This document shows positions 16,527-47,763 of a stretch of 64,000 nucleotides of DNA, piece by piece. The stretch comes from Pelagibacterales bacterium SAG-MED15. GTDB lineage: Bacteria > Pseudomonadota > Alphaproteobacteria > Pelagibacterales > Pelagibacteraceae. Position 1 is the stretch's first letter. Each line of letters opens with the position of its first letter. The DNA is taken from positions 31,080-95,079 of the forward strand of contig JACWDM010000004.1 in assembly GCA_014654065.1 (NCBI GenBank). The letters run 5' to 3'. The notes below the pieces were generated by a model that ran no database searches, was not told the DNA's origin, and saw only the letters and a program-made list of their open reading frames with translations. The position numbers and the translations under genes are program-made.

Positions 16527-17165
16527 ATGCATTTAATTCATAGAGGAATATTAAATAAGAAATTCAAAGAGAATTGCTTAGATTCTTTTAAAGCTTCTTT
16601 TAAAAAAAAATATGGGATTGAGACAGATATACATGCAACAAAAGATAAAAAATTTATATGTTTCCATGATTTTACTTTAAAAAGAATATTTAAAATAAAC
16701 AAAAGTATAAAAGATATTAAATATCAAGAATTAAAAAAAATTAAGTATAAAAGTTTTAAAATTCCACTTTTAACTGAGGTCCTTAAACTTTCAAAAAACA
16801 AATATCCAATATTCGTTGAAATTAAACCATTTCTTGAGAAGAGATTACTAAGTAAATTAATCAATGAAACAAAAGGTTTTAACAAAGTCGTTTTTATTTC
16901 ATTTAAGAAAGATAATATTGATAACCTTTTAAAAATTAACTCTAGTATTAAAGTAGGGTTATCTTTTTCTAATCGTTCAAGTATTAAATCAATTTTAAAA
17001 AGTTCAGTAAATAAAAAATTAAAATGTTTAATATTAGATAAAAAATTTTTAAATAACAAAAAAATACAAAAAATAAAAAAAGAAAAATACTATTATACGA
17101 TTAAGAATAAAAATTATTTTTTAAAATACAGAAAAAATTATAATCTTATTTTTGAAAATTTATGA
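16527..17165 (+). CDS. Glycerophosphodiester phosphodiesterase family protein (short, very Lys-rich)
   Basis: N-terminal HRG...ENCLDSFKASF...GIETDIH resembles the GDPD catalytic motif (HRG, E-N-S/T, E-x-D-h). The 3' end overlaps the convergent gene by 6 nt. Confidence 0.6.
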   Translation: MHLIHRGILNKKFKENCLDSFKASFKKKYGIETDIHATKDKKFICFHDFTLKRIFKINKSIKDIKYQELKKIKYKSFKIPLLTEVLKLSKNKYPIFVEIKPFLEKRLLSKLINETKGFNKVVFISFKKDNIDNLLKINSSIKVGLSFSNRSSIKSILKSSVNKKLKCLILDKKFLNNKKIQKIKKEKYYYTIKNKNYFLKYRKNYNLIFENL

Positions 17166-18371
17166 TTTTTGTTTTTTTAAGTATTCTAATCTACCAATAA
17201 TTTCATCTCTATCTAAATAGTATCCTTGTAAATGGCGATGTCCTGAGTTTGGATCGAAAGCAGTTCTTCCATGTAAAACTCGTCTATTATTAAATGAAAA
17301 TATGTCACCAGGGCCTAATCTAAATTTTATTTGAAATTTATCATCGTGTAAAAGATTTCCAAATCTATGATGCGCTTTATAAACTTTATCCATTTGATCT
17401 GGGTGACAATCTAAAGCATCCATAGTTGCAACACTAAATCTTATATCATGAAAATCTTTATCCTTAGTTAAGCTGATTGCTGGCGCATGAAAACTTCTAT
17501 GAGATTCTTGTGTATAATCTTTATCTCTAAACTTTAACGGAACTGAAATTAATGTTTCAAAAATTTCTTTTTCATTTTTTTTTAAATATTCAGCTACAGC
17601 AAAACCATCTATGGCTGAAGAATCTCCACCTTGAGCATCGTTTATTAAACAATGCAAGAACTGATAACCAGGTGGAAGCTCAAACCAAGGTAAATCCATA
17701 TGATTTCTAAGAGCATGTGCGGTGTATGCAGAGTTATTAGGTTTTGGAATATTGATTACTTCAAATGGTGTTTTGAAAAACGTTTCTCTAACATGGCTAA
17801 TTCTATGAAGAACATCAAAAGCAGATTTTTTTTCAATTGGAGCATTTTTAACTATTGCTATACCTTTGTGATGAAGTAATTCCAACCATTTCACTAAACC
17901 TTTATCAGAATTAATGATCTCATCATGATCTATATAAATTGATTCAAAGTTTTTTGATAAATTATTATCCCATAGTTGATATGGGGAAATATATTTCTTT
18001 TTATTATTTATTGTGTAACAATTTTCTCTGAGCCACTTAGGATCATAGTAACTGGTATGATTACCTTCACTCCATTCTATTTTTAATTTTCCTTCATCAT
18101 TTAAAGAATAATTTTTTGGATTTATATCTTTTGAAACCTCTAAAATATTAAACATTCTATGGTTTGAGTCTTTATCATGAGCTGTGGGACAGTTATCTCT
18201 TAACCATAAATAGTTAAAATTACTTTGTTCGCCGTCACTCCACTTGATACTTAAATTTTTGTCTTTTTTTTCAACGTTATCAATTTTAACCATATTTAAA
18301 TTCTTAATATTTTTTAAAGGTTTTTCAATAAATTTTTCACAAAAATATTCTTGTTTTTTACCCTCATACAA
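17160..18371 (-). CDS. Gamma-butyrobetaine hydroxylase / trimethyllysine hydroxylase-like Fe(II)/2-oxoglutarate dioxygenase
   Basis: The N-terminal DUF971-like module (LSIKWSDGEQSNFNYLWLRDNCP, repeated as KIEWSEGNHTSYYDPKWLRENC) is followed by a TauD-fold domain with HMDLPW and NRRVLHGRTAF. Confidence 0.8.
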   Translation of the reverse strand: MYEGKKQEYFCEKFIEKPLKNIKNLNMVKIDNVEKKDKNLSIKWSDGEQSNFNYLWLRDNCPTAHDKDSNHRMFNILEVSKDINPKNYSLNDEGKLKIEWSEGNHTSYYDPKWLRENCYTINNKKKYISPYQLWDNNLSKNFESIYIDHDEIINSDKGLVKWLELLHHKGIAIVKNAPIEKKSAFDVLHRISHVRETFFKTPFEVINIPKPNNSAYTAHALRNHMDLPWFELPPGYQFLHCLINDAQGGDSSAIDGFAVAEYLKKNEKEIFETLISVPLKFRDKDYTQESHRSFHAPAISLTKDKDFHDIRFSVATMDALDCHPDQMDKVYKAHHRFGNLLHDDKFQIKFRLGPGDIFSFNNRRVLHGRTAFDPNSGHRHLQGYYLDRDEIIGRLEYLKKQKS

Positions 18372-18389
18372 TATTAAAGTAATAGGGCT

Positions 18390-19175
18390 ATGGATAAATC
18401 GCTTAGAAATAAAAAAATTTTAATATCAGCAGGTGCTTCAGGTATTGGTTGGGTAACAGCAAAAATCTGTTTATCAAAAGGAGCAACTGTTTATATATGT
18501 GACATAGAGTCAAAGTATTTAAATAAAGTAAAAAAACATCCTCTTAATAATAAAAAATTATTTATTTATAACTGTGATGCCTCAAATGAACTAGATGTAA
18601 ATGAATTATTTAAAAAAATTTTAAAAAAAACTAAAAAGTTAGATTGTTTAATTAATAATGTTGGGGTTGCAGGACCAACAGGAACTATTGAAAAATTATC
18701 CTCTAAACACTGGGAAAATACCTTAAAAATAAATGTAATCAGTCATTTCTATTTTACTAAACTGGCAATTCCAATGTTAAAAAATAATAAAGGAGGTTCA
18801 ATTATTAATATGGCATCTGGAGCGGGTATAATGGGTTTTCCTCTTAGATCTCCTTATGCTGCAAGCAAATGGGCTGTAGTTGGAATTACTAAAACTTTAG
18901 CAATGGAGCTAGGGAAATTTAAAGTTAGAGTAAATGCTATATGTCCAGGAACTATAAAAGGTGATCGTATGGTTAGGGTAATAAGAGATAAGGCCAAATT
19001 TTTAAAAATTTCAAAAAAGTCTATTGAAAAAGAGTTTATATCTATGGCATCAATTAATAGTTGGGTTTATGAAGAAGATATAGGATACATGTGTAGCTTC
19101 TTAATATCTGATGATGCTAAAAGAATTTCTGGACAAATTATAGGTGTTGATGGTAACGCTACTAGACTAGATTAA
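18390..19175 (+). CDS. Short-chain dehydrogenase/reductase (SDR)
   Basis: GASGIGW cofactor motif, NNVGVAG, and the catalytic YAASKWAV (YxxxK). Confidence 0.85.
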   Translation: MDKSLRNKKILISAGASGIGWVTAKICLSKGATVYICDIESKYLNKVKKHPLNNKKLFIYNCDASNELDVNELFKKILKKTKKLDCLINNVGVAGPTGTIEKLSSKHWENTLKINVISHFYFTKLAIPMLKNNKGGSIINMASGAGIMGFPLRSPYAASKWAVVGITKTLAMELGKFKVRVNAICPGTIKGDRMVRVIRDKAKFLKISKKSIEKEFISMASINSWVYEEDIGYMCSFLISDDAKRISGQIIGVDGNATRLD

Positions 19176-20116
19176 TTTCTAATTTTCTTCTCATACTTTT
19201 TCCTTAGCTTTAATAAATCAACTAAATACTCGTCTCTTATATTAGAAATTTTTGCTACAGACTTTCCTTTTGATTGTTTTTTTGTTCCATCTACCAGCCG
19301 ATTTATTAGTTTCTTTGATAAGATTGGAGATTTTAATTTTGTCCATGGAAGTTTTAAAGCTGGTCCAAATTGTTCTAGCATATGTTTCATTCCAGCTTTT
19401 CCACCAGCTAAATGAAATGTTAAAAAGGTTCCCATCAAAGACCATCTTAAACCAGGACCATCTTCAATAGCTCTATCCAAATCCTCTGTGGTTGCATGAC
19501 CTTCATTAATAATATGTAACCCCTCTCTCCATAAAGCCTCTTGTAATCTATCTGATAAATAACCAGGCAACTCCTGTTTAACCATTATTGGATTCATTGA
19601 GATTGATTTATAAAATCTTTTAGCTTTATTTAAAATTGCTTTAGATGTTTTTTTTCCTGGCACAATTTCCAAAGCTGGCAATAAATAAACAGGATTAAAT
19701 GGGTGCCCTATAATTCCTCTTTGAGGATTCTTACATTTTGAATAAATTCTTGTAGGAAGCAATCCTGATGAGCTAGATGAAATAATGGTATTTTGTTTTG
19801 AATATTTTCCGATTTTACTAAGTAAATTAGTTTTCAAAGAATAATTTTCGGTTGCACATTCTTGGATAAAATCAGCGTTTTTCAAAGTTTCTTTTAAAGA
19901 TGTAAAATATTTAAAATTTTTTAAATTTAATTTTTTTTTATTAAAAAGTTTTTTTGTATAAGGCCAAGCTCTTTTAATCTCCTCTATTATTTTTTTTTTT
20001 GACTTGATATCTTTATCAAATGCATAAACAATTTTATTGTGTGCTAAAAGACGAATAATCCAACCTGTTCCGATTACGCCAGTTCCAATGACTGCAACAT
20101 TTTTTATATTAGACAT
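19172..20116 (-). CDS. 3-hydroxyacyl-CoA dehydrogenase-fold enzyme, probable L-carnitine dehydrogenase
   Basis: Rossmann motif VAVIGTGVIGTGW and about 314 aa. It is translationally coupled (TAATG) to an upstream BKACE gene, the arrangement of known carnitine dehydrogenase / dehydrocarnitine cleavage pairs. Confidence 0.7.
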   Translation of the reverse strand: MSNIKNVAVIGTGVIGTGWIIRLLAHNKIVYAFDKDIKSKKKIIEEIKRAWPYTKKLFNKKKLNLKNFKYFTSLKETLKNADFIQECATENYSLKTNLLSKIGKYSKQNTIISSSSSGLLPTRIYSKCKNPQRGIIGHPFNPVYLLPALEIVPGKKTSKAILNKAKRFYKSISMNPIMVKQELPGYLSDRLQEALWREGLHIINEGHATTEDLDRAIEDGPGLRWSLMGTFLTFHLAGGKAGMKHMLEQFGPALKLPWTKLKSPILSKKLINRLVDGTKKQSKGKSVAKISNIRDEYLVDLLKLRKKYEKKIRN

Positions 20117-21003
20117 TACTTGTGTTTAACAAGTTTTAATTTTTCTCTTGTTTCTGAAGGGGTCATAGTAGAATAACCCAATTCGTTTACTATTCTTATA
20201 GCTTTTTCTACTAGCTGAGCATTGGTTGCTAGCTTACCTTTTGATAGATATAAATTGTCTTCAAGCCCTACTCTTGGATTACCTCCCATTAAAACTGTTT
20301 GAGCAACAAATGGCATTTCATTTTTTGAAATTGCAAATCCAGACCAAACACCCTCCTTTGGCATTATGTCTTTCATTGCTTGCATTGCTAAAGTGGTAGC
20401 AGGCGCACCCCATGGAATTCCAAGGCACATTTGAAACATTGGAGGATCACTTAACAATCCTTCTTTATATAATTGCGCACCAAACCACATATTGCCTAAA
20501 TCAAAAGCTTCAATTTCTGGTTTGACTTTAATTTCCATTAGTTTTTTTGCAGCTTTTCTCAAATCATTGGGAGTATTAACTGTAATGACTGAACTATCTC
20601 CAAAGTTTAAAGTTCCTGCATCTAAAGTACAAATCTCAGGAAGAAATTGTTCAACGCTTGATATTCTTTCCATCACATTTGCCATATCTGTCATTGGTCC
20701 AAATTCTAGAGGATTGTTACCTTGACCAATATCAAGATCTCCACCCATGCCAGTTGTTAAATTTAAAATTACATCAGTCCCACTAGATCTAATTCTATCG
20801 ACTACCTCTTTATATAATTCTGGTCTTCTACTTGGAGTTCCATCTTTCTCTCTTACATGAATGTGCGCAATTGCAGCGCCAGCTTTTGCAGCCTCGATAG
20901 AGGCTTTTGCTATTTGTTCTGGAGTTTTAGGTAAATCTGGATGTTTACTAGCTGTATCACCAGAACCAGTCACTGCACAAGTTACAAAAACTTTATTGTC
21001 CAT
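20116..21003 (-). CDS. Beta-keto acid cleavage enzyme (BKACE, DUF849), probable 3-dehydrocarnitine cleavage enzyme
   Basis: N-terminal VFVTCAVTGSGDT...PDLPKTPEQIAKASIEAAKAGAAIAHIHVR is the canonical BKACE start. 295 aa. Confidence 0.85.
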   Translation of the reverse strand: MDNKVFVTCAVTGSGDTASKHPDLPKTPEQIAKASIEAAKAGAAIAHIHVREKDGTPSRRPELYKEVVDRIRSSGTDVILNLTTGMGGDLDIGQGNNPLEFGPMTDMANVMERISSVEQFLPEICTLDAGTLNFGDSSVITVNTPNDLRKAAKKLMEIKVKPEIEAFDLGNMWFGAQLYKEGLLSDPPMFQMCLGIPWGAPATTLAMQAMKDIMPKEGVWSGFAISKNEMPFVAQTVLMGGNPRVGLEDNLYLSKGKLATNAQLVEKAIRIVNELGYSTMTPSETREKLKLVKHK

Positions 21004-21038
21004 ATTATTATAATCTAATATAATTCATTATTATTTAA

Positions 21039-21767
21039 ATGAAAATAACTGAATTACAAAAAGATTTAGCAGCTACATTCAGGTGGACTGCAAGATTAAA
21101 TATGAATGAAGGGGTTGCAAACCATTTTAGTGCGTGTGTGCCTGGTTCTTCTGGTGAATTTTACGTCAACAAGGCTGGTATTCATTTTAGTCAAATTAAA
21201 GCTAGCGATTTAATTTTAGTAACAAATGATAATATTGAAGATCTAAAAACTAAACCAGATGTTGTGGATGCTACAGCTATAAGTATTCATGGCACAATTC
21301 ATCAAAAAGTACCTCATGCAAAATGTATATTTCACGTACACTCAAAATATGCAACAGCCCTATCAACTCTAAAAGATCCTACCCTTCCTCCAATAGATCA
21401 AAATACAATGAGATTTTATAATAGGGTCTCTTTATACGATGAGTATGGTGGTATGGGTTTTGAAGAAGAGTCATTGAAGATGGCAGCAGCTTTAGGGAAT
21501 AAACAAAATTTATTAATGGCAAACCACGGAATTTTAACTACTGGTGAAACTATTTCAGATGGATTTGATGCCTTATATTATTTTGAAAGATCTGCTGAGA
21601 CTTATTTAACAGCTTTAGCAACTGGTAAGGAATTAAATATAGCGTCCCACGAGGTAGCAGAAAAAACTGCTCAAGAATGGTCTGATTATCCATCAGATAA
21701 TGGAAGAGCTCATTTAGATCAAATAAGATTGATTTTAGATAAAGAAGAACCCGATTATAAAAATTGA
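21039..21767 (+). CDS. Class II aldolase/adducin N-terminal domain protein
   Basis: 242 aa with His-rich metal-site blocks (IHGTIHQKVPHAKCIFHVHS, ANHGILTTG) typical of the class II aldolase/adducin fold. Confidence 0.75.
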   Translation: MKITELQKDLAATFRWTARLNMNEGVANHFSACVPGSSGEFYVNKAGIHFSQIKASDLILVTNDNIEDLKTKPDVVDATAISIHGTIHQKVPHAKCIFHVHSKYATALSTLKDPTLPPIDQNTMRFYNRVSLYDEYGGMGFEEESLKMAAALGNKQNLLMANHGILTTGETISDGFDALYYFERSAETYLTALATGKELNIASHEVAEKTAQEWSDYPSDNGRAHLDQIRLILDKEEPDYKN

Positions 21768-21768
21768 A

Positions 21769-22599
21769 ATGATTAAAACTAATTTACTATCAGGCGCATT
21801 AGGTGCAGAAATCACAGGTATAGACCTAAAAGATTCAACGACCGAAAATTGGAATAAAATTAATAATTTATTATTAGAACATAAAGCACTTTTTTTTAGA
21901 GACCAAGATATATCATCCGAAGAACAAATTAATTTAGCTAAACATTTTGGACCTCTAGAAAAACATATTTATGTAAAGGGAAGAGAAGAATATCCAGAAA
22001 TTTTGAGAATAATTAAAGAACCAGATGAAAAACATCAGTGGGGTGAAACTTGGCACACTGATGTTAGTTATAATCCAAAACCAACAAAGGTAATTATTTT
22101 AAGATCTTTAAAAATACCACCCGTAGGAGGCGATACAATGTTTTCTAATATGGAGATAGCTTATGAAACATTAGAAGACAAAATAAAAGATAAAATAAAA
22201 GATAAAAAAGCAGTTCATAGCTCTTTAGGTGCCGCTGCTTTTGTTGATGCCTACAATGCTATGGAGGGTAATGGTAACCTAAATGAATATTCAAATATAC
22301 ATCCTGTAGTTCGAACTCATCCTGAAACTGGAAAAAAAATATTATATGTAAATTCAATGTATACAAAAAGAATTTTAGATATGGAAGAGAATGAAAGTGA
22401 TGAAATTTTGGATAAAATTTTTAGACACCAAGAGAGATTGGATTTTACATGTAGATTTAAATGGACTGAAAATGCTGTAGCAATTTGGGACAACAGAAGT
22501 ACATTACATCAAGGACTAACGGACTTTTTTCCAGGTAGAGGCTTAGGACACGAAAGAGTGATGGACAGAATTGCTATAGAGGGTGATCACCCACAATAA
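21769..22599 (+). CDS. TauD/TfdA-family Fe(II)/2-oxoglutarate dioxygenase
   Basis: LGAEITGIDL start, the WHTDVSY (HxD) motif, VHS..., and C-terminal WDNRSTLH. Confidence 0.85.
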   Translation: MIKTNLLSGALGAEITGIDLKDSTTENWNKINNLLLEHKALFFRDQDISSEEQINLAKHFGPLEKHIYVKGREEYPEILRIIKEPDEKHQWGETWHTDVSYNPKPTKVIILRSLKIPPVGGDTMFSNMEIAYETLEDKIKDKIKDKKAVHSSLGAAAFVDAYNAMEGNGNLNEYSNIHPVVRTHPETGKKILYVNSMYTKRILDMEENESDEILDKIFRHQERLDFTCRFKWTENAVAIWDNRSTLHQGLTDFFPGRGLGHERVMDRIAIEGDHPQ

Positions 22600-24193
22600 G
22601 AGTATTACTTTGAAATTTGATTATTTAATTATTGGAGCAGGAACAGCTGGATGTGTTTTGGCTAACAGATTGTCAGAAAAAATTCAAAATAATGTTGCTA
22701 TTTTCGAAGCTGGCAAAAAAAGTGACATTTGGAAAGTAAACATGCCACTTGCTATTCTTTATGCAATGCATGATCCAAAATATAATTATAAGTATTATTC
22801 TGAACCTGAGCCATATTTAAATAATAGAAGATTATTTTGCCCAAGAGGTAAGATGATTGGAGGATGTTCTGCTCACAATGGTATGGTTTATGTAAGAGGT
22901 AATAAAAATGATTATGACAGGTGGGCATCATTTGGTCTTAAAGACTGGAGTTATGAAAAAGTTTTACCTTTTTTTAAAAAAATAGAAACATGGTCTGGTG
23001 GGGAAAATAAATATAGAGGTGGAGATGGCATACTTCCAATTAATCAATCAAAAAATAAAAATCCATTATTTAAAGCATTTCTGAATTCTGCAAAAGAAGC
23101 AGGATATAAAATTAATAACGATATGAATGGCGAAAACCAAGAGGGATTTGGTATGTATGATGTTACCATTCATGAGGGTGAAAGAGCAAGTGCATCAAAA
23201 TATTATTTAAATTCAGTAAAAAATAGAAAAAATTTAAATATATTTACTGAGTCTTTTGTTGAAAAAATAATTTTTGATGGAAGGAAAGCAATTGGAATTG
23301 AAGTTAAGATAAAAAACAAAGTTAAAAAAATTTATGCTAATAAAGAAGTTATTCTTAGTGGAGGATCGATAAATTCACCACAATTGTTAATGGTATCAGG
23401 TGTAGGTCCAGGTACACATTTAAAAGATAAAGGAATTGAAACTATTCATAATATAGATGGAGTTGGTAAAAATCTTCAAGATCATCTTGAAACATACATA
23501 CAACAAGAATGCAAAACTCCAGATACTCTATACACCTATGTAAATAAATTTAATATGATTAAAGCAGGTATACAATGGTTTGTGAATAAAAGTGGTCCCT
23601 GTTCTACTTCATTCTTAGAGGCTGGTGGTTTTTGTAAATCTTCTTCAGATAAAGAATATCCAAATATACAATTTCATTTTTTTCCTGCTTTTGTAATAGA
23701 TCATGGAAAAGTTGATCCAGATAGACATGGATATCAGCTGCATGCAAGTTTGAATCAACCAAAAAGTAGAGGTCATATAACTTTAAATAGCTCTAACCCA
23801 TATGATTATCCCAAAATACAATTTAATTATTTAGAGAACGAATACGATCTTAATGAGACAGTAAAATGTATTCACGTTGCTAGAAAAATATTAAGTCAAA
23901 ACTCAATGAAGCCTTATGCGGGAAAAGAAATCGGACCTGGAGAAAATGCTAATGATAATAAACAAATAGAGAGTTATATAAGATCAAAAGCAGAAACAGC
24001 TTACCATCCATCATGCACATTAAAAATGGGTACTGACAATACAGCTGTTGTTGACGAAAAATTAAAAGTTCACGGTTTACAAAATATTAGAGTCGCTGAT
24101 GCTTCTGTTATGCCAGAGATCACAAGTGGTAATTTAAATGCTCCAACTTTAATGATAGCTGAGCGTGCAGCAGATTTTATTATTAATTCTTGA
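22583..24193 (+). CDS. GMC-family FAD oxidoreductase, choline dehydrogenase-like
   Basis: FDYLIIGAGTAGCVLANRLSE FAD motif, GGSINSPQLLMVSGVGP, and C-terminal YHPSCTLKMG and ADASVMP. The track start GTG 22583 overlaps the upstream gene by 17 nt. TTG 22610 (MKFDYLIIGAG) is an equally plausible start. Confidence 0.85.
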   Translation: MITHNKSITLKFDYLIIGAGTAGCVLANRLSEKIQNNVAIFEAGKKSDIWKVNMPLAILYAMHDPKYNYKYYSEPEPYLNNRRLFCPRGKMIGGCSAHNGMVYVRGNKNDYDRWASFGLKDWSYEKVLPFFKKIETWSGGENKYRGGDGILPINQSKNKNPLFKAFLNSAKEAGYKINNDMNGENQEGFGMYDVTIHEGERASASKYYLNSVKNRKNLNIFTESFVEKIIFDGRKAIGIEVKIKNKVKKIYANKEVILSGGSINSPQLLMVSGVGPGTHLKDKGIETIHNIDGVGKNLQDHLETYIQQECKTPDTLYTYVNKFNMIKAGIQWFVNKSGPCSTSFLEAGGFCKSSSDKEYPNIQFHFFPAFVIDHGKVDPDRHGYQLHASLNQPKSRGHITLNSSNPYDYPKIQFNYLENEYDLNETVKCIHVARKILSQNSMKPYAGKEIGPGENANDNKQIESYIRSKAETAYHPSCTLKMGTDNTAVVDEKLKVHGLQNIRVADASVMPEITSGNLNAPTLMIAERAADFIINS

Positions 24194-36292: not shown

Positions 36293-37333
36293 TTATTTAT
36301 TTAAGGACGATGCAAAGTTCCAAGAACAATCAAAGCTTGGAATATAAATTCTATCTAAGGATGTATTGCCAAAGCTTTTTTCAAATAAATTTAGCCATTT
36401 ATCAACTTGTTTTGGTTTTTTGTCTTGGCTTCCAACTTGCGCAGTGATTGTTCCATTTGATTTTAAAATTCTTTTTAAAGAATTTATATTTTTTGCTGCA
36501 AGATCTATGCAATATTGATCATCATTCAAATCAACAAATATTTTGTCATATTTATTTTCTTCTACTTTTTTAATACTTTCAAAGGCATCACCCCAAACAC
36601 ACTTTACAGAATTTTTTGTAGTAGCTTTTTCACCTATTTTGGATAAATGTTTGTCACAAACATGAACAACTTCGGGATCTAGCTCGTACCAATCAATTAA
36701 ATTGAATCCTTTCGAAATGAGTTCTCTTGCTACTCCACCATCTCCACCACCAATTATCGCTGACTTATCTTTGCTAGGATTTAGTTTTAAACCTGAATTT
36801 ACAAATGTTGAACTATATAGGTGTTCGTCACTTTCAGCTACTTGAAGTTCATTATCTATGAATAAAGACTTACCAAATTGTTCCAAATCTAAAATTTCAA
36901 TATGTTGTCCAACTTTTGAAGTAAAATCTTCCAATATATTTCTAACCATGTAATATTTTTTTAGTCCAGGTGAACTATAAATATCATCGTAATAGCTAAT
37001 TGTATCTCTATTAAATTCTTTTTTAACTATACGTTTATGTTTGATTTCTTTTTTTAAAATTTCTAAAGCGACAACTGGATTTATTTTGCCACAAGTAAAA
37101 AAATCAAAACTTATAATTTCTTTTTCAGGAAATGTATGAAAGCTTATATGACTCTCAGCAAGCAAAGCTACTAATGTAAATCCTTGTGGTTCAAATTTAT
37201 ATTTTGAAATTTCTAGAACAGTAACTTTTGCTCTTTTTGCAATTTTGTAGACAAGTTTTTCAAAAAACTTGGGTTCATATTCTTTCTCTGTTCCGATGAT
37301 ATCAAGAGTAATATGCTCACCTACTTTACCCAT
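36293..37333 (-). CDS. Fusion protein: pyruvoyl-dependent S-adenosylmethionine decarboxylase (SpeH/SpeD-like) plus aminopropyltransferase (SpeE-like)
   Basis: The N-terminal ~115 aa carries LLAESHISFHTFPE (autoprocessing Glu-Ser site) and FDFFTCG. The C-terminal ~230 aa carries IIGGGDGGVARE, YELDPEVV and IFVDLND aminopropyltransferase blocks. It is a single uninterrupted ORF. Confidence 0.8.
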   Translation of the reverse strand: MGKVGEHITLDIIGTEKEYEPKFFEKLVYKIAKRAKVTVLEISKYKFEPQGFTLVALLAESHISFHTFPEKEIISFDFFTCGKINPVVALEILKKEIKHKRIVKKEFNRDTISYYDDIYSSPGLKKYYMVRNILEDFTSKVGQHIEILDLEQFGKSLFIDNELQVAESDEHLYSSTFVNSGLKLNPSKDKSAIIGGGDGGVARELISKGFNLIDWYELDPEVVHVCDKHLSKIGEKATTKNSVKCVWGDAFESIKKVEENKYDKIFVDLNDDQYCIDLAAKNINSLKRILKSNGTITAQVGSQDKKPKQVDKWLNLFEKSFGNTSLDRIYIPSFDCSWNFASSLNK

Positions 37334-37345
37334 AAAAAGTTACCC

Positions 37346-38005
37346 CTAGTTTTTTTTATAACTTTTAGTTTTTTCTAAAATTTTATTCATTTCTTCAAAT
37401 GAAAGAATCTTAGGTTTCCCTATTTTTAATGTATTTATATATTGATGACAAATATTTTCTACTTCTTGTGCAAGCTCAAATGCTTCTTCTAAATTTTTAC
37501 CAAATGCAACCTGACCGTGGTTTGACATCAAGCATGCTTTTCTTTTTTCGAGAGCTGTGAGCATATTTTCAGATAATTCTTTAGTACCAAAAGTTGCATA
37601 TTCTGAACATTTAATATCATCACCTCCTGCTAAGGCTATCATGTAGTGAAAGGCTGGTATATTTTTTCCATGGGCAGAAACAGCTGTGGCATGTGGAGAA
37701 TGTGCGTGCACAATTGCATATGCATCCTTTTTTTTAATATAAATATCCTGATGAAATCTCCATTCTGATGATGGATTTAAATCATTTTTTGATATTTTAT
37801 CATTATTTAAACTTTCATCCAACTCTAAGAAAACAATATTTTCTTCATTAAGTTGATCATATTTAATTCCTGAAGGAGTAATTAAAAATCCTTTTTTTCC
37901 ATTTTGATCTGCTCTTATTGATATATTTCCAGATCTTAAAGGTGACAAATTTGAACTATTAAGTTTTTTTGCATACTCAATAACTTCTTTTTTTAAATTA
38001 TTCAT
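37346..38005 (-). CDS. Class II aldolase-fold enzyme: methylthioribulose-1-phosphate dehydratase (MtnB) or MTRu-1-P aldolase
   Basis: 219 aa with a His metal triad context (IVHAHSPHATAVS, SNHGQVAFG). It lies in an operon with mtnA and mtnP. Confidence 0.75.
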   Translation of the reverse strand: MNNLKKEVIEYAKKLNSSNLSPLRSGNISIRADQNGKKGFLITPSGIKYDQLNEENIVFLELDESLNNDKISKNDLNPSSEWRFHQDIYIKKKDAYAIVHAHSPHATAVSAHGKNIPAFHYMIALAGGDDIKCSEYATFGTKELSENMLTALEKRKACLMSNHGQVAFGKNLEEAFELAQEVENICHQYINTLKIGKPKILSFEEMNKILEKTKSYKKN

Positions 38006-38208
38006 TACTTACTTAAATTTTTTTCTATTTCAGTCTTACAAAAAATTTTAATATCTTCAATATTTCTATCCTTATAAATTTTTTTCTGGGCAATTACGCA
38101 TGCCTTCATAGATTTGCTTAAACTAAATGATCCATACTCTATTCTTGAAACATAAAGCATAATAAATGCTATTATTAAAAATAATATATAATACAAATTT
38201 TTTCTCAT
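38005..38208 (-). CDS. Small single-TM protein (67 aa)
   Basis: An N-terminal hydrophobic helix (YYILFLIIAFIMLYV) then a charged domain with 2 Cys. It overlaps both neighbours (4 nt and 1 nt), so it is probably translated. Confidence 0.45.
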   Translation of the reverse strand: MRKNLYYILFLIIAFIMLYVSRIEYGSFSLSKSMKACVIAQKKIYKDRNIEDIKIFCKTEIEKNLSK

Positions 38209-39275
38209 TTAAATAATTCCTTTAACCCATTTTCAGATGCTTCACAAATTCCTTTTTCGGTAATTAATCCTGTAACATACTTCGCTGGTGTAACATCAAA
38301 AGCTAAATTCATGGATTTGCTTTTTTGAGGATAAATTCTTACCTTAATAATTTTTCCATTTTGATCTACACCTTCTATTTCTGATAATTCATCTGAACTT
38401 CTTTCTTCAATTGGTATTTCTTTTGAATTTTTTGTTTCCCAATCAATTGTTGAACTTGGTAAAGCAACATAGAATGGAACATTGTTATCTTTGGCAGCTA
38501 AGGCCTTTAAATAAGTTCCAATTTTATTACAAACATCACCATTAGCTAGTGTTCTGTCTGTACCAACTATACATAGATCAACTTCGCCTCTATTCATTAG
38601 TATACCACCAGTATTATCTGCAATAATAGTATTTTTAATTCCCTCTTCATTAAGTTCGTACGAAGTTAAATTTGCCCCTTGGTTTCTAGGTCTTGTTTCG
38701 TCAACCCATACATGGATAGGAATTCCATTTTTATGAGCATGATATATAGGCGAAGTAGCAGTGCCCCAATCTATTGTTGCTAACCAACCAGCATTACAAT
38801 GAGTTAAAATATTTACTGGTTTTTTTTTTTTATTATAAATTTCTTCAATAATTTTTAATCCATTTAATCCAATATTTTTACAGAAGTTAATATCTTCTTC
38901 ACAAATTTCTTTTGCTTCATTAATTGCAATTTCTAAAATTTTATCACTATTAACACCTGCGATTTTTTTCATCATTCTATGCACGGCCCATTTTAGATTA
39001 ATTGCTGTAGGTCTTGAATTTATTAATTCTTCAGAAATTTTTTTTAAAAAAGATTGATCATTATTTTCTAATATTGATAAAACTAATCCGTACGCTGCTG
39101 TAGCGCCAATTAATGGAGCACCTCTAACTTCCATGGTTTTAATTGAATTAATTGCATCTTTAACTGTTTTAAGATCTTTAATAACAAATTTATGCGGTAG
39201 TTTAGTTTGATCAATTATTTTTACACAATTGTCCTTCAGCCAAATTGTTTTATAATCTTTGCCTTCTATTTTCAT
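38205..39275 (-). CDS. mtnA: S-methyl-5-thioribose-1-phosphate isomerase
   Basis: 356 aa of the eIF-2B alpha/beta/delta-like family, with the blocks VRGAPLIGATAAYG, THCNAG, ETRP.NQGA and GTDR...NGD..NKIGTY. Confidence 0.9.
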   Translation of the reverse strand: MKIEGKDYKTIWLKDNCVKIIDQTKLPHKFVIKDLKTVKDAINSIKTMEVRGAPLIGATAAYGLVLSILENNDQSFLKKISEELINSRPTAINLKWAVHRMMKKIAGVNSDKILEIAINEAKEICEEDINFCKNIGLNGLKIIEEIYNKKKKPVNILTHCNAGWLATIDWGTATSPIYHAHKNGIPIHVWVDETRPRNQGANLTSYELNEEGIKNTIIADNTGGILMNRGEVDLCIVGTDRTLANGDVCNKIGTYLKALAAKDNNVPFYVALPSSTIDWETKNSKEIPIEERSSDELSEIEGVDQNGKIIKVRIYPQKSKSMNLAFDVTPAKYVTGLITEKGICEASENGLKELFK

Positions 39276-39715
39276 TATTTAATTCTATCTAAACTTTCAG
39301 TCGGCCAAATTTTTTCTCTATCATACATTTTATCATAGCAAATTGATTTATCAGTGATTTCAATCCAGGGGTCTTTATCTTTGACAAAAATATGAGCTTG
39401 GGGTTTTAAAGAATTTTCTAATGTTTGTGATCTTATAGCAACTCTTCCTACAGATATATTGTATCTACAAAAAACATATACTCCACAAATTATGCAAAAA
39501 TAAGCGTTAACACCTTTTCCACTTCCAGTTGGAAGCTCAATAGATGCAACGTCCCCTTTAACTTCTAAATCTTTCTCAAGAACCATTGTATGTATTACAA
39601 AAGATGAACCTGTAGATTTTTTACAATCTTTGCAATGGCAAGCTTGAGTGAATAATGGTTTATCTTTTATTGTATACTTAACATTCTCACATCCACAACT
39701 TCCTTTTAAACTCAT
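39275..39715 (-). CDS. GFA (glutathione-dependent formaldehyde-activating)/CENP-V family zinc protein
   Basis: Cys pattern CGCENVKY...CHCKDCKKSTGSSF...YFCIICG, typical of the GFA fold. 146 aa. Confidence 0.8.
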   Translation of the reverse strand: MSLKGSCGCENVKYTIKDKPLFTQACHCKDCKKSTGSSFVIHTMVLEKDLEVKGDVASIELPTGSGKGVNAYFCIICGVYVFCRYNISVGRVAIRSQTLENSLKPQAHIFVKDKDPWIEITDKSICYDKMYDREKIWPTESLDRIK

Positions 39716-40581
39716 TTATTCAAAACTCTTCCTGCTACTGTTTTAAGTTTATCTATAGTTTTTTTTGTTCTTTTCTCCGGTGATGTAATGATAGCAACAT
39801 CTAAACAATTATTTGTTGGATCCTTTGAATCTATATATTTTTCAAAATTCTCAATTAAATTTTTAATCATACTTTTAGCTTTTGAGGCATTTCCTAAAAG
39901 AACCTTAATAACTTGTTGGACGTCAACATTTTCATGATCTGGATGCCAACAATCATAATCCGTAACCATTGAGACAGAAGCATATCTTATTTCTGCCTCC
40001 CTTGCCAATTTAGCTTCTGGCATATTAGTCATACCTATAACATCTGCTTTCCATGATCTATATAAGTTAGATTCAGCTAATGTTGAGAATTGTGGTCCTT
40101 CCATAACAACATAAGTACCTCCTCTTTGATATTCTATTTCCTCTTTTTTAATTGCTTCTTCACAAGCATTCATTAAACCATTTGAAGTTGGGTGTGCCAT
40201 TGAAACATGAGCTACTATTTCGTCATCAAAAAAAGTTTTATTTCTTGCAAAAGTTCTATCTATAAACTGGTCGATAATTACAAATTTGCCTGGTTGGAGG
40301 TCTTCTTTTAAGGAACCAACTGCAGATATTGAGACAATATCAGTTACCCCAAGTTGCTTCAGAGAATCGATATTTGCTCTAAAATTAATCTTGGAAGGTG
40401 AAATATAATGTCCCTTTCCATGTCTTGGTAAAAAATAAACTTCTTTCTCCCTATAATTAGTTTTCAAGATTTTATCTGAGGGATTGCCCCATGGTGTTTT
40501 TATATTTAAAAACTCTCGATCTTTAAATTCTTCGATATCATAAAGACCACTACCACCAATAATAGCTAATTTGTTTGTCAT
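39712..40581 (-). CDS. mtnP: S-methyl-5'-thioadenosine phosphorylase
   Basis: IIGGSGLY start, YFLPRHG.GH, SAVGSL, and MTNMPEAKLAREAE blocks of MTAP-type PNP family members. Confidence 0.9.
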   Translation of the reverse strand: MTNKLAIIGGSGLYDIEEFKDREFLNIKTPWGNPSDKILKTNYREKEVYFLPRHGKGHYISPSKINFRANIDSLKQLGVTDIVSISAVGSLKEDLQPGKFVIIDQFIDRTFARNKTFFDDEIVAHVSMAHPTSNGLMNACEEAIKKEEIEYQRGGTYVVMEGPQFSTLAESNLYRSWKADVIGMTNMPEAKLAREAEIRYASVSMVTDYDCWHPDHENVDVQQVIKVLLGNASKAKSMIKNLIENFEKYIDSKDPTNNCLDVAIITSPEKRTKKTIDKLKTVAGRVLNK

Positions 40582-40621
40582 ATTATTTAAAATGATTTAA
40601 TTATTTATAACTTATAAATTT

Positions 40622-41149
40622 ATGGATTTAAAAGATTATATTAGGTCAATTCCAAACTATCCTAAAAAGGGAATTTTATTTAGAGATATTACTACATTAA
40701 TTAAAGATGAAAAAGCATTTAGAGAAACAATTAATCAAATAATTGAAAAATCAAAAAAATTTAAAATAGATAAAATAGCTGCAATAGAGTCTAGAGGTTT
40801 TGTTTTTGCATCTGCAGTTGCGTATTTATTAAAAAAACCTTTTATAATGTTAAGAAAAAAGAACAAATTACCGGCAGAGACATACTCCACAGATTTTGAA
40901 TTAGAATATGGAACAGCAACTATCGAAGTCCACAAAGACTCAATTGAAAAAAACGATACGGTATTGATAATTGATGATTTAATCGCTACAGGAGGGACAG
41001 CAGAAGCTGCAGCAAAATTAATAGAAATGTCTGGTGGAGCAATTTCTGGATTTATATTTGTGATAAATCTTTACGATCTTGGTGGATCAGATAAATTAGT
41101 AAAATCTGGTTTTAAAGTAGAAAATTTAATAGATTTCCCAGGACACTAA
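40622..41149 (+). CDS. apt: Adenine phosphoribosyltransferase
   Basis: IRSIPNYPKKGILFRDITTL start and the PRPP motif VLIIDDLIATGGTA. Confidence 0.92.
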   Translation: MDLKDYIRSIPNYPKKGILFRDITTLIKDEKAFRETINQIIEKSKKFKIDKIAAIESRGFVFASAVAYLLKKPFIMLRKKNKLPAETYSTDFELEYGTATIEVHKDSIEKNDTVLIIDDLIATGGTAEAAAKLIEMSGGAISGFIFVINLYDLGGSDKLVKSGFKVENLIDFPGH

Positions 41150-47686: not shown

Positions 47687-47763
47687 TGGTAGCGGGAAGT
47701 GGGATCGAACCACTGACCTCGGGCTTATGAGTCCCGCGCTCTAACCAACTGAGCTACCCCGCC
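47687..47763 (-). tRNA. tRNA with CAT anticodon (elongator Met-like; lysidine-modified Ile2 not excluded)
   Basis: The reverse complement GGCGGGGTAGCTCAGTTGGTTAGAGCGCGGGACTCATAAGCCCGAGGTCAGTGGTTCGATCCCACTTCCCGCTACCA folds as a 77-nt cloverleaf. It has D-arm GCTC/GAGC, anticodon loop CTCATAA, T-arm AGTGG/CCACT with a TTCGATC loop, and an encoded CCA. Confidence 0.88.

What the first reader, a model, noticed from the sequence alone, without database searches (positions are those of the whole stretch)
37346..40581. MTA-recycling operon with two unassigned inserted genes and an ambiguous third step (MtnB dehydratase or DHAP-shunt aldolase)
The minus strand carries mtnP, a GFA-family zinc protein, mtnA, a 67-aa membrane protein and a class II aldolase-fold gene. 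Successive junctions overlap by 4, 1, 4 and 1 nt, and the fused AdoMetDC/aminopropyltransferase follows 12 nt further on. The canonical salvage route needs enolase-phosphatase (MtnC or MtnW/X) and acireductone dioxygenase (MtnD), and neither is in this window. A phosphorylase-isomerase-class II aldolase trio is also the architecture of the DHAP shunt, in which MTRu-1-P is cleaved to DHAP plus 2-methylthioacetaldehyde. The GFA-family protein and the small membrane protein are translationally coupled inside the operon and have no role in either textbook pathway. GFA-type proteins handle thiol-aldehyde adducts, which would fit processing of a methylthio-aldehyde. That link is speculation. For an organism thought to depend on reduced sulfur, the fate of the methylthio group matters.
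Basis: partly seen in the sequence, partly recalled or inferred. Interest (0 to 1): 0.7.

Follow-up and report, generated by a model that had tools for sequence, protein, structure and literature searches.

The report
SAR11 MTA-disposal (DHAP shunt) operon
This marine SAR11 bacterium makes spermidine and breaks down the by-product methylthioadenosine through the known three-enzyme "DHAP shunt" (phosphorylase, isomerase, aldolase) rather than classical methionine salvage; one of the two extra genes in the operon is variable cargo and the other is a conserved small partner of the aldolase.

Summary
All six minus-strand ORFs, the 4/1/4/1-nt overlaps and the 12-nt gap are exactly as described. The "ambiguous third step" resolves to an aldolase. 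The 219-aa protein aligns end-to-end with E. coli FucA (46%) and with the characterised E. coli MTRu-1-P aldolase Ald2 (37%). It keeps every FucA catalytic and metal residue. On the MtnB model it scores 64.5 bits, the same as real Ald2 and below the 137 cutoff. Across 38 SAR11 loci a class II aldolase always lies between mtnA and speDE: FucA-like in 32 and an aldolase-SDR fusion in 6, never both or neither. So this is an MtnP-type DHAP shunt coupled to a SpeD/SpeE fusion and a divergent apt, which makes it a new member of a known kind. The GFA gene is accessory. It is present in about 15% of species representatives, and its orthologs at 66-72% identity sit in unrelated islands. However, two GFA lineages only 28% identical recur inside this operon, so a functional link is not excluded. 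The 67-aa ORF is a real gene (dN/dS 0.06-0.16; 396 clusters; fixed C-x19-C). It sits directly upstream of the FucA-like aldolase in every locus examined, and its function is unknown. No mtnB, mtnC or mtnD lies in the window; the rest of the genome could not be searched.

The parts
40622..41149 (+). apt, adenine phosphoribosyltransferase. It is transcribed divergently from the operon and salvages the adenine released by MtnP.
   Evidence: NF002634 scores 222 bits (cutoff 170). It is conserved at this position in all loci that reach it.
40582..40621 (.). 40-nt AT-rich divergent intergenic region between mtnP and apt; presumed shared promoter region.
   Evidence: Sequence shown. The promoter scan was not above chance, and there was no Rfam hit. 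The promoter role is inferred only.
39712..40581 (-). mtnP, 5'-methylthioadenosine phosphorylase (first step: MTA or 5'-dAdo to adenine plus (methylthio/deoxy)ribose-1-P).
   Evidence: NF006492 scores 447.3 bits (cutoff 437); TIGR01694 scores 308 (cutoff 275).
39275..39715 (-). GFA/CENP-V-family zinc protein (146 aa, lineage 'GFA-a'). It is accessory cargo in the mtnP|mtnA junction, and its function is unknown.
   Evidence: PF04828 scores 91.6 bits. The true Gfa model TIGR02820 scores only 25 bits against a cutoff of 235. It carries CxC, CHCxxC and CxxC motifs. dN/dS is 0.07. It is present in 5 of 33 representative loci. Orthologs occur elsewhere.
38205..39275 (-). mtnA, 5-methylthioribose-1-phosphate isomerase (second step).
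   Evidence: TIGR00512 scores 423 bits (cutoff 279). The R15P-isomerase model scores 165 (cutoff 314). It is 56% identical to the E. coli ATCC 25922 DHAP-shunt MtnA.
38005..38208 (-). 67-aa single-pass small protein with an invariant C-x19-C pair. It is a conserved upstream partner of the aldolase gene, and its function is unknown.
   Evidence: dN/dS is 0.06-0.16. The family has 396 clusters. 119 of 120 members have 2 Cys, and 117 of those have fixed spacing. It lies directly upstream of ald in every locus, including L050 and 11 of 11 divergent members. The AF2 model has pLDDT 86 and is a helical hairpin. There is no Pfam, NCBIfam or fold match.
37346..38005 (-). FucA/Ald2/DrdA-type class II aldolase, the predicted 5-(methylthio)ribulose-1-P / 5-deoxyribulose-1-P aldolase (third step: to DHAP plus 2-methylthioacetaldehyde or acetaldehyde).
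   Evidence: FucA 1fua gives E=3.8e-50 over the full length and DrdA 6btd gives 2.4e-40. Identity is 46% to EcFucA and 37% to EcAld2. Residues G28, N29, S71, E73, H92, H94, Y113, H155 and Y209 are invariant. The MtnB model scores 64.5 bits (cutoff 137), identical to the score of characterised EcAld2.
36293..37333 (-). Fused S-adenosylmethionine decarboxylase / aminopropyltransferase (SpeD-SpeE), the source of MTA.
   Evidence: AdoMet_dc covers residues 7-109 and Spermine_synth covers 170-338. TIGR03330 scores 96.6 bits (cutoff 75.7). It is syntenic in 32 loci.

Best explanation
The locus is one transcription unit that joins polyamine synthesis to disposal of its by-product through the MtnP-initiated DHAP shunt. 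SpeD/SpeE makes spermidine and releases MTA. MtnP splits MTA (and probably 5'-deoxyadenosine from radical-SAM enzymes) into adenine, which the divergent Apt recaptures as AMP, and 5-methylthioribose-1-P. MtnA isomerises that to 5-methylthioribulose-1-P. The 219-aa FucA-type class II aldolase then cleaves it to DHAP, which enters central metabolism, and 2-methylthioacetaldehyde (or acetaldehyde). It is not an MtnB dehydratase, so the classical oxygen-dependent methionine salvage route does not start here. The GFA gene and the 67-aa gene are not core steps. They sit in two junctions (mtnP|mtnA and mtnA|ald) that hold different cargo in different SAR11 genomes. That cargo is probably exchanged by recombination between the conserved flanking genes and then trimmed until start and stop codons overlap. 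GFA is flexible-genome cargo. The 67-aa protein is a real, constrained, membrane-anchored partner that travels with the FucA-like aldolase. Shown here: gene identities, the synteny statistics, the catalytic residues and the selection on the ORFs. Inferred: enzyme substrates, the single transcript, the fate of the aldehyde and the insertion mechanism.
For: Gene calls and junction overlaps. Equivalog-level MtnP, MtnA and Apt.

Aldolase evidence:
- It gives full-length hits to FucA and DrdA structures but only a weak, distant hit to an MtnB-like structure (2irp, 4.9e-8) and none to APIP.
- Its NCBIfam score pattern matches that of the experimentally characterised E. coli Ald2, including the identical 64.5 bits on TIGR03328 MtnB.
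- Its catalytic residues are invariant.

Synteny: 27 of 37 Pelagibacteraceae species representatives have ald next to or near mtnA. In the 38 loci where the whole mtnA-to-speDE interval is visible, 32 have the FucA-like aldolase and 6 have an aldolase/SDR fusion, with none having both or neither.

No MtnB, MtnC or MtnD in the window. No internal terminator.

Pathway definition and biochemistry of homologous clusters come from PMC13474568, PMC10986504 and PMC6079011. These include the 3R,4R stereochemistry shared by FucA products and 5-deoxyribulose-1-P.

Cargo variability. GFA-a orthologs in unrelated islands. Small-ORF selection and linkage to ald.
Against: No enzyme was assayed. Sequence alone cannot separate an MTRu-1-P aldolase from a true fuculose-1-P aldolase: EcAld2 is itself 58% identical to EcFucA. 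The SAR11 protein falls below the curated cutoffs of every FucA model (203 against 264).

The rest of the genome could not be searched for mtnB, mtnC or mtnD. A 2026 preprint scores 'methionine salvage' as complete in 135 Pelagibacter genomes by KEGG modules, without giving details.

One SAR11 clade (the sulfatase type, about 10 loci) has mtnP-mtnA with no aldolase within 5 kb.

The view that GFA is merely cargo is challenged. Two GFA lineages occur inside this operon in three positions, and 52 of 80 GFA-b loci are next to mtnA.
Confidence: 0.8

Rival explanations
1. The GFA-family protein is a working part of the pathway. It would catalyse thiol addition to, or C-S chemistry on, the aldehyde product (2-methylthioacetaldehyde or acetaldehyde), either to detoxify it or to route the methylthio group. 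It concerns only the role of GFA and is compatible with the DHAP-shunt reading.
For: Two GFA lineages only 28% identical (GFA-a and GFA-b) occupy the same mtnP|mtnA junction, both with overlapping start and stop codons. GFA-b relatives at 72-98% identity are in that junction in 29 of 29 informative metagenome loci. Relatives at 59-64% sit directly after mtnA, or after mtnA plus an SMR gene. In all, 52 of 80 GFA-b loci are next to mtnA. GFA co-occurs with both aldolase types. GFA genes are rare in SAR11 isolate genomes (gfa in 1 of 3; PMC3160333), and none occurs elsewhere in the roughly 540 kb of SAR11 sequence I held. The enzyme that acts on 2-methylthioacetaldehyde is still unknown in the field (PMC13474568). 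GFA is under purifying selection (dN/dS 0.07).
Against: It is absent from 28 of 33 species-representative loci that have the same operon. GFA-a at 66-72% identity lies in at least three unrelated contexts, and about 27 GFA-b loci lack mtnA nearby. The same junctions also accept unrelated cargo: PhyH, sulfatase, sulfotransferases, DegT, ECH. The counts are inflated by shared ancestry and by the GFA-b query used to fetch the loci. The protein is not a Gfa ortholog (25 against 235 bits). No GSH-dependent dehydrogenase or hydrolase partner lies in the window. The characterised E. coli DHAP-shunt cluster has no GFA gene.
Confidence: 0.28
2. The 219-aa protein is MtnB (MTRu-1-P dehydratase) and the operon starts the canonical methionine salvage pathway, with mtnC and mtnD elsewhere in the genome.
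For: It has the class II aldolase fold that MtnB shares, it is adjacent to mtnA, and it gives a weak N-terminal hit to MtnB models (64.5 bits, residues 9-115). A preprint states that methionine salvage is complete in Pelagibacter.
Against: All three MtnB models score far below their cutoffs (64.5/137, 55/226, 44/281), and only the N-terminal half aligns. The characterised aldolase EcAld2 gives the same MtnB score. Full-length alignment to FucA shows every aldolase catalytic residue retained. There is no MtnC or MtnD in the window. In some lineages it is replaced by an aldolase/SDR fusion rather than by a dehydratase.
Confidence: 0.04
3. The aldolase is a genuine sugar-phosphate aldolase for another substrate (L-fuculose-1-P, or D-ribulose-1-P from general nucleoside breakdown), and the trio degrades ordinary nucleosides or deoxy-sugars rather than MTA specifically.
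For: The best sequence match is true FucA (46%). There is a 169-bit hit to the haloarchaeal ribulose-1-P aldolase model. FucA-type enzymes are promiscuous towards aldehydes (PMC6079011). MTAP can act on other nucleosides.
Against: MtnP and MtnA pass the MTA-specific equivalog cutoffs, while the R15P-isomerase and PNP models fail. No fucI, fucK or fucP lies nearby. The gene is locked between mtnA and the MTA-producing SpeD/SpeE in 32 loci. The FucA equivalog cutoffs are not reached (183/400).
Confidence: 0.08
4. The 67-aa ORF is a spurious or untranslated reading frame left in a spacer between mtnA and ald.
For: It is short and AT-rich, has no family hit and no fold match, and is absent from most SAR11 loci.
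Against: dN/dS is 0.06-0.16 at near-saturated dS, as low as for ald. A 58-aa homolog at about 30% identity keeps the TM helix and both Cys. The family has 396 clusters with a fixed C-x19-C. All other frames are full of stops. The start and stop codons overlap the neighbouring genes.
Confidence: 0.03

Closest known systems
MtnP-type DHAP shunt of Rhodospirillum rubrum / Rhodopseudomonas palustris (MtnP-MtnA-Ald2)
   Same: It has the same three enzyme families in the same order of action. It uses the phosphorylase rather than the nucleosidase+kinase entry, and the host is an alphaproteobacterium. The predicted products are DHAP plus 2-methylthioacetaldehyde (PMC13474568).
   Different: Here the genes are translationally coupled in one operon with a SpeD/SpeE fusion and a divergent apt. 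No methylthio-alkane reductase or dedicated alcohol dehydrogenase was seen in the window.
E. coli ExPEC DHAP shunt cluster mtnK-mtnA-ald2 (ATCC 25922, L060:13781-16837)
   Same: MtnA is 56% identical and the aldolase 37% identical. The NCBIfam score pattern is the same and all catalytic residues are shared.
   Different: E. coli uses Pfs+MtnK instead of MtnP. Its cluster carries a GRP sugar transporter and lies on the leuX island. It has no GFA gene, no small ORF and no polyamine genes. EcAld2 is much closer to EcFucA (58%) than to the SAR11 enzyme.
Bacillus thuringiensis 5-deoxyribose salvage DrdK-DrdI-DrdA (PDB 6BTD)
   Same: It has a kinase/phosphorylase-isomerase-FucA-like aldolase architecture. 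DrdA matches the SAR11 protein at E=2.4e-40. It also converts methylthioribose to DHAP (PMC6079011).
   Different: DrdA prefers Mn2+ and acetaldehyde. It enters through a kinase and its role is detoxification. The metal preference of the SAR11 enzyme is unknown.
Canonical methionine salvage pathway (MtnA-MtnB-MtnC/MtnW,X-MtnD)
   Same: It shares the first steps (MtnP, MtnA) and a class II aldolase-fold protein at step three.
   Different: The step-three protein is an aldolase-clade enzyme, not MtnB, and no MtnC or MtnD lies in the window.
Paracoccus denitrificans Gfa (S-(hydroxymethyl)glutathione synthase) and the CENP-V/GFA domain (PDB 8AJQ)
   Same: It has the Pfam GFA domain, the seven-cysteine pattern expected for two zinc sites, and a weak match to 8ajq (E=3.8e-6).
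   Different: It scores 25 bits against the 235 cutoff for the Gfa equivalog. It is shorter (146 aa). No GSH-dependent formaldehyde dehydrogenase or hydrolase lies nearby. Its function is untested.
Bifunctional class II aldolase/short-chain dehydrogenase family (NF006192; relatives of B. subtilis RhaEW/YuxG)
   Same: In six related SAR11 loci a 679-aa member occupies the mtnA-speDE interval in place of the FucA-like aldolase.
   Different: It is not present in this window. It is on the opposite strand, and it carries its own dehydrogenase domain that could act on the aldehyde product.

Membership tests
DHAP shunt (MtnP variant) | MTA phosphorylase present | tested here: met
   NF006492 scores 447.3 bits against a cutoff of 437.
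DHAP shunt (MtnP variant) | MTR-1-P isomerase (MtnA) present and clustered | tested here: met
   TIGR00512 scores 423 bits against a cutoff of 279. It is in the same operon.
DHAP shunt (MtnP variant) | FucA-like class II aldolase (Ald2/DrdA type) clustered with mtnA, with catalytic Glu, three His and Tyr | tested here: met
   Synteny is conserved in 32 loci.
DHAP shunt (MtnP variant) | Cleavage of MTRu-1-P / 5-deoxyribulose-1-P to DHAP plus aldehyde | not testable with these tools
   This needs an enzyme assay.
DHAP shunt (MtnP variant) | No MtnB/MtnC/MtnD route competing in the same genome | tested here: inconclusive
   They are absent from the 64-kb window.
MtnB (MTRu-1-P dehydratase) | Score at or above the curated cutoff on MtnB equivalog models, over the full length | tested here: not met
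   TIGR03328 scores 64.5/137 (residues 9-115 only), NF006672 55/226, NF005244 44/281. The characterised aldolase EcAld2 also scores 64.5 on TIGR03328.
L-fuculose-1-phosphate aldolase (FucA, equivalog) | Score at or above the curated cutoffs | tested here: not met
   TIGR01086 scores 183/400 and NF005984 scores 203.5/264.
L-fuculose-1-phosphate aldolase (FucA, equivalog) | Fucose operon context (fucI, fucK, fucP, fucO) | tested here: not met
   None lies adjacent; compare K-12 fucO-fucA-fucP-fucI.
L-fuculose-1-phosphate aldolase (FucA, equivalog) | Catalytic and zinc residues E73, H92, H94, H155, Y113 | tested here: met
   They are invariant in alignment A2.
Gfa, S-(hydroxymethyl)glutathione synthase | Equivalog score | tested here: not met
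   TIGR02820 scores 25.2/234.55.
Gfa, S-(hydroxymethyl)glutathione synthase | GFA domain with the cysteine pattern for two Zn sites | tested here: met
   PF04828 scores 91.6 bits. C7, C9, C26, C28, C31, C74 and C77 are visible in the translation. Assigning them to the two Zn sites rests on my own knowledge of the Gfa structure.
Gfa, S-(hydroxymethyl)glutathione synthase | Clustered GSH-dependent formaldehyde dehydrogenase and S-formylglutathione hydrolase | tested here: not met
   Neither was seen in the window sweep.
SMR small multidrug-resistance exporters (considered for the ~111-aa membrane protein in related loci) | Detectable homology to PF00893 members | tested here: not met
   There was no Pfam or NCBIfam hit. 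hhalign probability is 1.6%.

The most novel reading that the evidence does not exclude
SAR11 has recruited GFA-family zinc proteins, and in other lineages an aldolase-dehydrogenase fusion, to handle the aldehyde end of the DHAP shunt. A GFA enzyme would perform thiol/C-S chemistry on 2-methylthioacetaldehyde. That would fill the step the field still lists as unknown, and it might let a sulfur-auxotrophic cell recover, or safely export, the methylthio group. The C-x19-C membrane peptide would act as an aldolase-associated accessory.
Probability: 0.15. Interest if true: 0.8.

Novelty: new member of a known kind. Interest (0 to 1): 0.45.

Why it matters
SAR11 cannot reduce sulfate and lives on scavenged reduced sulfur. 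This operon nevertheless indicates that each spermidine it makes sends the methylthio group of SAM into 2-methylthioacetaldehyde rather than back to methionine. Only adenine and a triose are recovered. If that is right, the most abundant ocean bacterium is a steady source of a small volatile organosulfur product (methylthioethanol or a derivative), and it pays a sulfur cost for genome streamlining.

It is also an annotation trap. NCBI's pipeline labels even the characterised E. coli Ald2 as 'L-fuculose-phosphate aldolase', and module-based pipelines may score 'methionine salvage' as present.

Three follow-up handles for the unassigned aldehyde step came out of the comparison: the strict aldolase-or-fusion alternation, the recurrent GFA genes, and the aldolase-linked small protein.

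Tried and rejected
1. Roseivirga L038 as an MtnB reference. Its 195-aa class II aldolase-like protein scores only 23 bits on MtnB models, so I did not use it.
2. Papers by North et al. 2017 and 2020, which would give the DHAP-shunt distribution, are not held. No held paper links the DHAP shunt to SAR11.
3. Fold search with the small-protein model gave nothing below E=1.
4. A PDB sequence search of the 336-aa slot-1 cargo gave nothing.
5. The 111-aa membrane protein as a divergent SMR was rejected.
6. A phage origin for GFA or ald was not supported: there were no viral-contig relatives.
7. Shared cargo between the GFA-a island and the mtn slots: only GFA itself is shared.
8. Riboswitch, terminator and promoter signals: there was no Rfam hit except one tRNA, no internal terminator, and promoter-like sites at or below the chance level.
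9. The second class II aldolase ORF in the window as a hidden MtnB was rejected.
10. PDB entry 8AJQ (a CENP-V/GFA protein) has no paper in the library.
11. I did not run the search of protein representatives, because unlabelled and context-free hits would not have separated Ald2 from FucA.

Full report
OBSERVATION. The finding is accurate. One search lists six consecutive minus-strand ORFs: 39712-40581 (289 aa), 39275-39715 (146 aa), 38205-39275 (356 aa), 38005-38208 (67 aa), 37346-38005 (219 aa) and 36293-37333 (346 aa). The coordinates give overlaps of 4, 1, 4 and 1 nt and a 12-nt gap, and the junctions are ATGA and TAATG types. Family scans identify MtnP (NF006492, 447 bits, cutoff 437), a GFA-domain protein (PF04828, 91.6 bits), MtnA (TIGR00512, 423 bits, cutoff 279), a 67-aa protein with no family, a class II aldolase-fold protein (PF00596, 175 bits) and a SpeD/SpeE fusion. 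A divergent apt lies 40 nt upstream (40622-41149). No terminator-like hairpin lies within the operon and there is no riboswitch. The window has about 30% GC, and its closest relatives are Pelagibacteraceae single-cell and metagenome-assembled genomes (MtnA 77-93% identical).

THE THIRD STEP IS AN ALDOLASE, NOT MtnB.
- The 219-aa protein aligns over its whole length with E. coli FucA structures (E=3.8e-50) and with B. thuringiensis DrdA, PDB 6BTD (E=2.4e-40). DrdA is the characterised 5-deoxyribulose-1-P aldolase (PMC6079011).
- MtnB models match only residues 9-115 and score far below their cutoffs: 64.5/137, 55/226 and 44/281.
- To calibrate, I fetched the experimentally characterised E. coli ATCC 25922 mtnK-mtnA-ald2 cluster at the end of the leuX island and K-12 fucA.
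- The SAR11 protein is 46% identical to EcFucA and 37% to EcAld2. EcAld2 is 58% identical to EcFucA.
- EcAld2 scores exactly 64.5 bits on the MtnB model, the same as the SAR11 protein, and hits FucA models over its full length. This score pattern is therefore what a genuine MTRu-1-P aldolase looks like.
- All FucA phosphate-binding, metal-binding and catalytic positions (G28, N29, S71, E73, H92, H94, Y113, H155, Y209) are invariant in EcFucA, EcAld2 and seven SAR11 copies.
- FucA-type enzymes make and cleave 3R,4R ketose-1-phosphates, which is the configuration of 5-deoxy- and 5-methylthio-ribulose-1-P (PMC6079011).

Sequence alone cannot separate Ald2 from FucA, because Ald2 function arises within the FucA clade. 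Context has to decide.

CONTEXT. A scan of one genome per species with MtnA gave 37 Pelagibacteraceae loci and one Roseivirga locus. The backbone apt <- -> mtnP ... mtnA ... ald - speDE is widespread. I pooled these with the metagenome loci and took the 38 loci where the whole mtnA-to-speDE interval is visible. Of these, 32 carry the FucA-like aldolase and 6 carry a convergent 679-aa bifunctional class II aldolase/short-chain dehydrogenase (NF006192, 867 bits, cutoff 639). None carry both and none carry neither. This non-orthologous alternation argues that an aldol cleavage is the function selected between MtnA and the MTA-producing SpeD/SpeE.

There are no fucose genes nearby. The window contains no MtnC, MtnD, RLP or MtnB. 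A second class II aldolase-fold ORF at 21039-21767 belongs to another subfamily (NF005689, 315 bits; MtnB 36 bits). The architecture therefore matches the MtnP-initiated DHAP shunt as defined in PMC13474568.

Two caveats remain. I could not search the rest of the genome. A 2026 preprint scores 'methionine salvage' as complete in Pelagibacter by KEGG modules without saying which genes were counted.

THE TWO EXTRA GENES SIT IN VARIABLE SLOTS.
- The mtnP|mtnA junction is empty in most genomes. Elsewhere it holds GFA-a (L001, L018, L023, L037), a 28%-identical GFA-b (L010), a PhyH dioxygenase, or unknown proteins of 336, 309+312 or 73 aa.
- The mtnA|ald junction is empty in some genomes. Elsewhere it holds the 67-aa ORF, a 58-aa homolog, a protein of about 111 aa with three hydrophobic segments, sulfotransferases, a TrpB-like PLP enzyme plus DUF1015, or DegT plus an epimerase.
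- Cargo is inserted seamlessly, with start and stop codons overlapping at both ends.
- On an MtnA tree the cargo is only partly clade-specific. That fits exchange by recombination between conserved flanking genes.
- The operon abuts a 21-25% GC island of glycosyltransferase and NDP-sugar genes.

GFA. GFA-a is a large orthogroup (309 clusters). Members at 73% identity or more lie in the mtn slot. Members at 66-72% lie in unrelated places. One is a flexible island between fumarase/SspB and DHFR/ThyA, and another is next to an SBP gene.

A metagenome scan with GFA-b changed the weight of this. All 29 informative loci with GFA-b at 72-98% identity have it between mtnP and mtnA. Many relatives at 59-64% lie directly after mtnA, or after mtnA plus an SMR exporter, in the lineages that carry the aldolase/SDR fusion. 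Overall 52 of 80 GFA-b loci are next to mtnA. Other GFA-b contexts include an overlapping agmatinase-like gene and a tandem GFA pair with an outer-membrane efflux protein.

GFA genes are otherwise rare in SAR11: 1 of 3 isolate genomes (PMC3160333), and none elsewhere in the sequence I held. At least three independent placements of two GFA lineages in one operon is more than I would expect by chance. However, the slots accept many unrelated genes, the counts share ancestry, and the loci were fetched with a GFA-b query. The protein is not a Gfa ortholog (25/235 bits). Its only structural relative is an uncharacterised CENP-V/GFA protein. I put a functional link at roughly 0.28.

THE SMALL ORF.
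- It is a real gene. dN/dS is 0.06-0.16 at dS of about 0.9-1.8, as constrained as ald (0.11-0.17). All other frames are closed.
- A 58-aa homolog at about 30% identity keeps the N-terminal hydrophobic helix and both cysteines.
- A profile search finds 396 clusters of 51-77 aa. Of the 120 best, 119 have exactly two Cys and 117 of those share the same offset, C-x19-C.
- It always lies directly upstream of the FucA-like aldolase. This holds in L050, where DegT and an epimerase were inserted between mtnA and it, and in 11 of 11 places for family members at 33-60% identity.
- AlphaFold predicts a long helix (residues 2-44) and a second helix (50-65) at pLDDT 86. No fold match was found.
- Most FucA-like aldolase genes in SAR11 lack it, so it is an accessory partner of unknown role.

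MECHANISM (shown versus inferred). Shown: the gene identities, the coupling geometry, the catalytic residues, the synteny statistics and the purifying selection. Inferred: SpeD/SpeE releases MTA. MtnP yields adenine (converted to AMP by Apt) and MTR-1-P. MtnA yields MTRu-1-P. The aldolase yields DHAP plus 2-methylthioacetaldehyde. 5'-Deoxyadenosine is likely a second substrate, as in characterised shunts. The fate of the aldehyde is unknown. A lactaldehyde-reductase-like Fe-ADH (9952-11142) and an ALDH (4277-5707) exist in the window, but they lie about 27-33 kb away and nothing links them to the operon.

COMPARISON AND NOVELTY. This is a new member of a known kind, the DHAP shunt (R. rubrum and R. 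palustris MtnP type; E. coli and B. thuringiensis kinase types). No held paper links it to SAR11. Three things appear to be new at the observational level: its fusion into one operon with polyamine synthesis, the strict alternation between aldolase and aldolase/SDR fusion, and the recurrent GFA genes together with the aldolase-linked C-x19-C peptide. None of their functions is established.

VERDICT. The DHAP-shunt reading is supported at about 0.8 and MtnB is rejected. The GFA-aldehyde link is weakened but still alive at about 0.28. The small ORF is real but unexplained. Interest is moderate at 0.45.

Noticed in passing
L135:3198-5237(-); also L015:7330-9369(-), L109, L125, L126, L128: In SAR11 lineages that lack the FucA-like aldolase, a 679-aa bifunctional class II aldolase/short-chain dehydrogenase (NF006192, 867 bits) lies between the mtn genes and speDE. 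Across 38 loci it is strictly mutually exclusive with the FucA-like gene. It could combine the cleavage step with the unassigned aldehyde step.
   Followed up: partly
L019, L021, L024-L030, L034 (e.g. L019:6074-7995): In one SAR11 clade, mtnA is followed by a 527-aa sulfatase and a 114-aa membrane protein. No aldolase or speDE lies within 5 kb, so the fate of MTRu-1-P in that clade is unexplained.
   Followed up: partly
L002:6068-6391, L008:6068-6403, L018/L023/L037:6068-6403, L052:5017-5352: A membrane protein of about 107-114 aa with three hydrophobic segments recurs immediately after mtnA, and after the sulfatase in the sulfatase clade. It has no Pfam or NCBIfam hit and is not SMR-like by hhalign.
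   Followed up: partly
L128:3149-3487 and about 15 other GFA-b loci: An SMR-family small exporter (PF00893; weak similarity to the spermidine exporter subunit MdtI among others) sits between mtnA and GFA-b in the aldolase/SDR-fusion lineages.
   Followed up: partly
L091:123-1840, L095:1272-2656; L094:1085-4104 and six similar loci: GFA-b relatives outside the mtn operon either overlap an agmatinase-like (polyamine) gene, or form a tandem pair with a second GFA paralog, followed by a kinase-like gene and an outer-membrane efflux protein, next to a LexA-like S24 peptidase.
   Followed up: partly
window 21039-21767 (+), within 17160-24193: A second class II aldolase-fold ORF (NF005689, 315 bits; not MtnB) lies in a cluster with BKACE, 3-hydroxyacyl-CoA dehydrogenase, an SDR, TauD-family dioxygenases and a GMC oxidoreductase. 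It looks like a carnitine/betaine-type catabolic cluster.
   Followed up: partly
window 41152-~52300: A low-GC (21-25%) island of glycosyltransferases, FkbM and other methyltransferases and NDP-sugar enzymes, with tRNA-Met at 47690-47763, directly abuts apt. It resembles the SAR11 hypervariable surface-polysaccharide region, and its proximity may explain why sugar- and sulfate-modifying cargo appears inside the mtn operon in related genomes.
   Followed up: partly
window 39712-39715, 39275, 38205-38208, 38005; the same junctions in L001-L037: Cargo genes are inserted with start and stop codon overlaps at both ends and no spacer DNA, in several independent insertions. This is a strikingly seamless form of operon remodelling.
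   Followed up: no
L060:16196-16837: NCBI's PGAP names the experimentally characterised E. coli MTRu-1-P/5-deoxyribulose-1-P aldolase Ald2 (WP_000439686.1) 'L-fuculose-phosphate aldolase'. Automated annotation therefore hides DHAP-shunt aldolases.
   Followed up: yes
L038:4327-7270 (Roseivirga MAG): The locus has a HAD hydrolase, mtnA and a 195-aa class II aldolase-like protein that matches neither MtnB (23 bits) nor FucA models, followed by a 169-aa protein with no family. It may be another variant of MTRu-1-P processing in Bacteroidota.
   Followed up: no
window 6118-7038 (+), 9952-11142 (-), 4277-5707 (+): A homocysteine S-methyltransferase-family gene, a lactaldehyde-reductase-like Fe-alcohol dehydrogenase and an aldehyde dehydrogenase lie in the same window. 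The last two are the only candidates seen for acting on the shunt's aldehyde product, but nothing links them to the operon.
   Followed up: no
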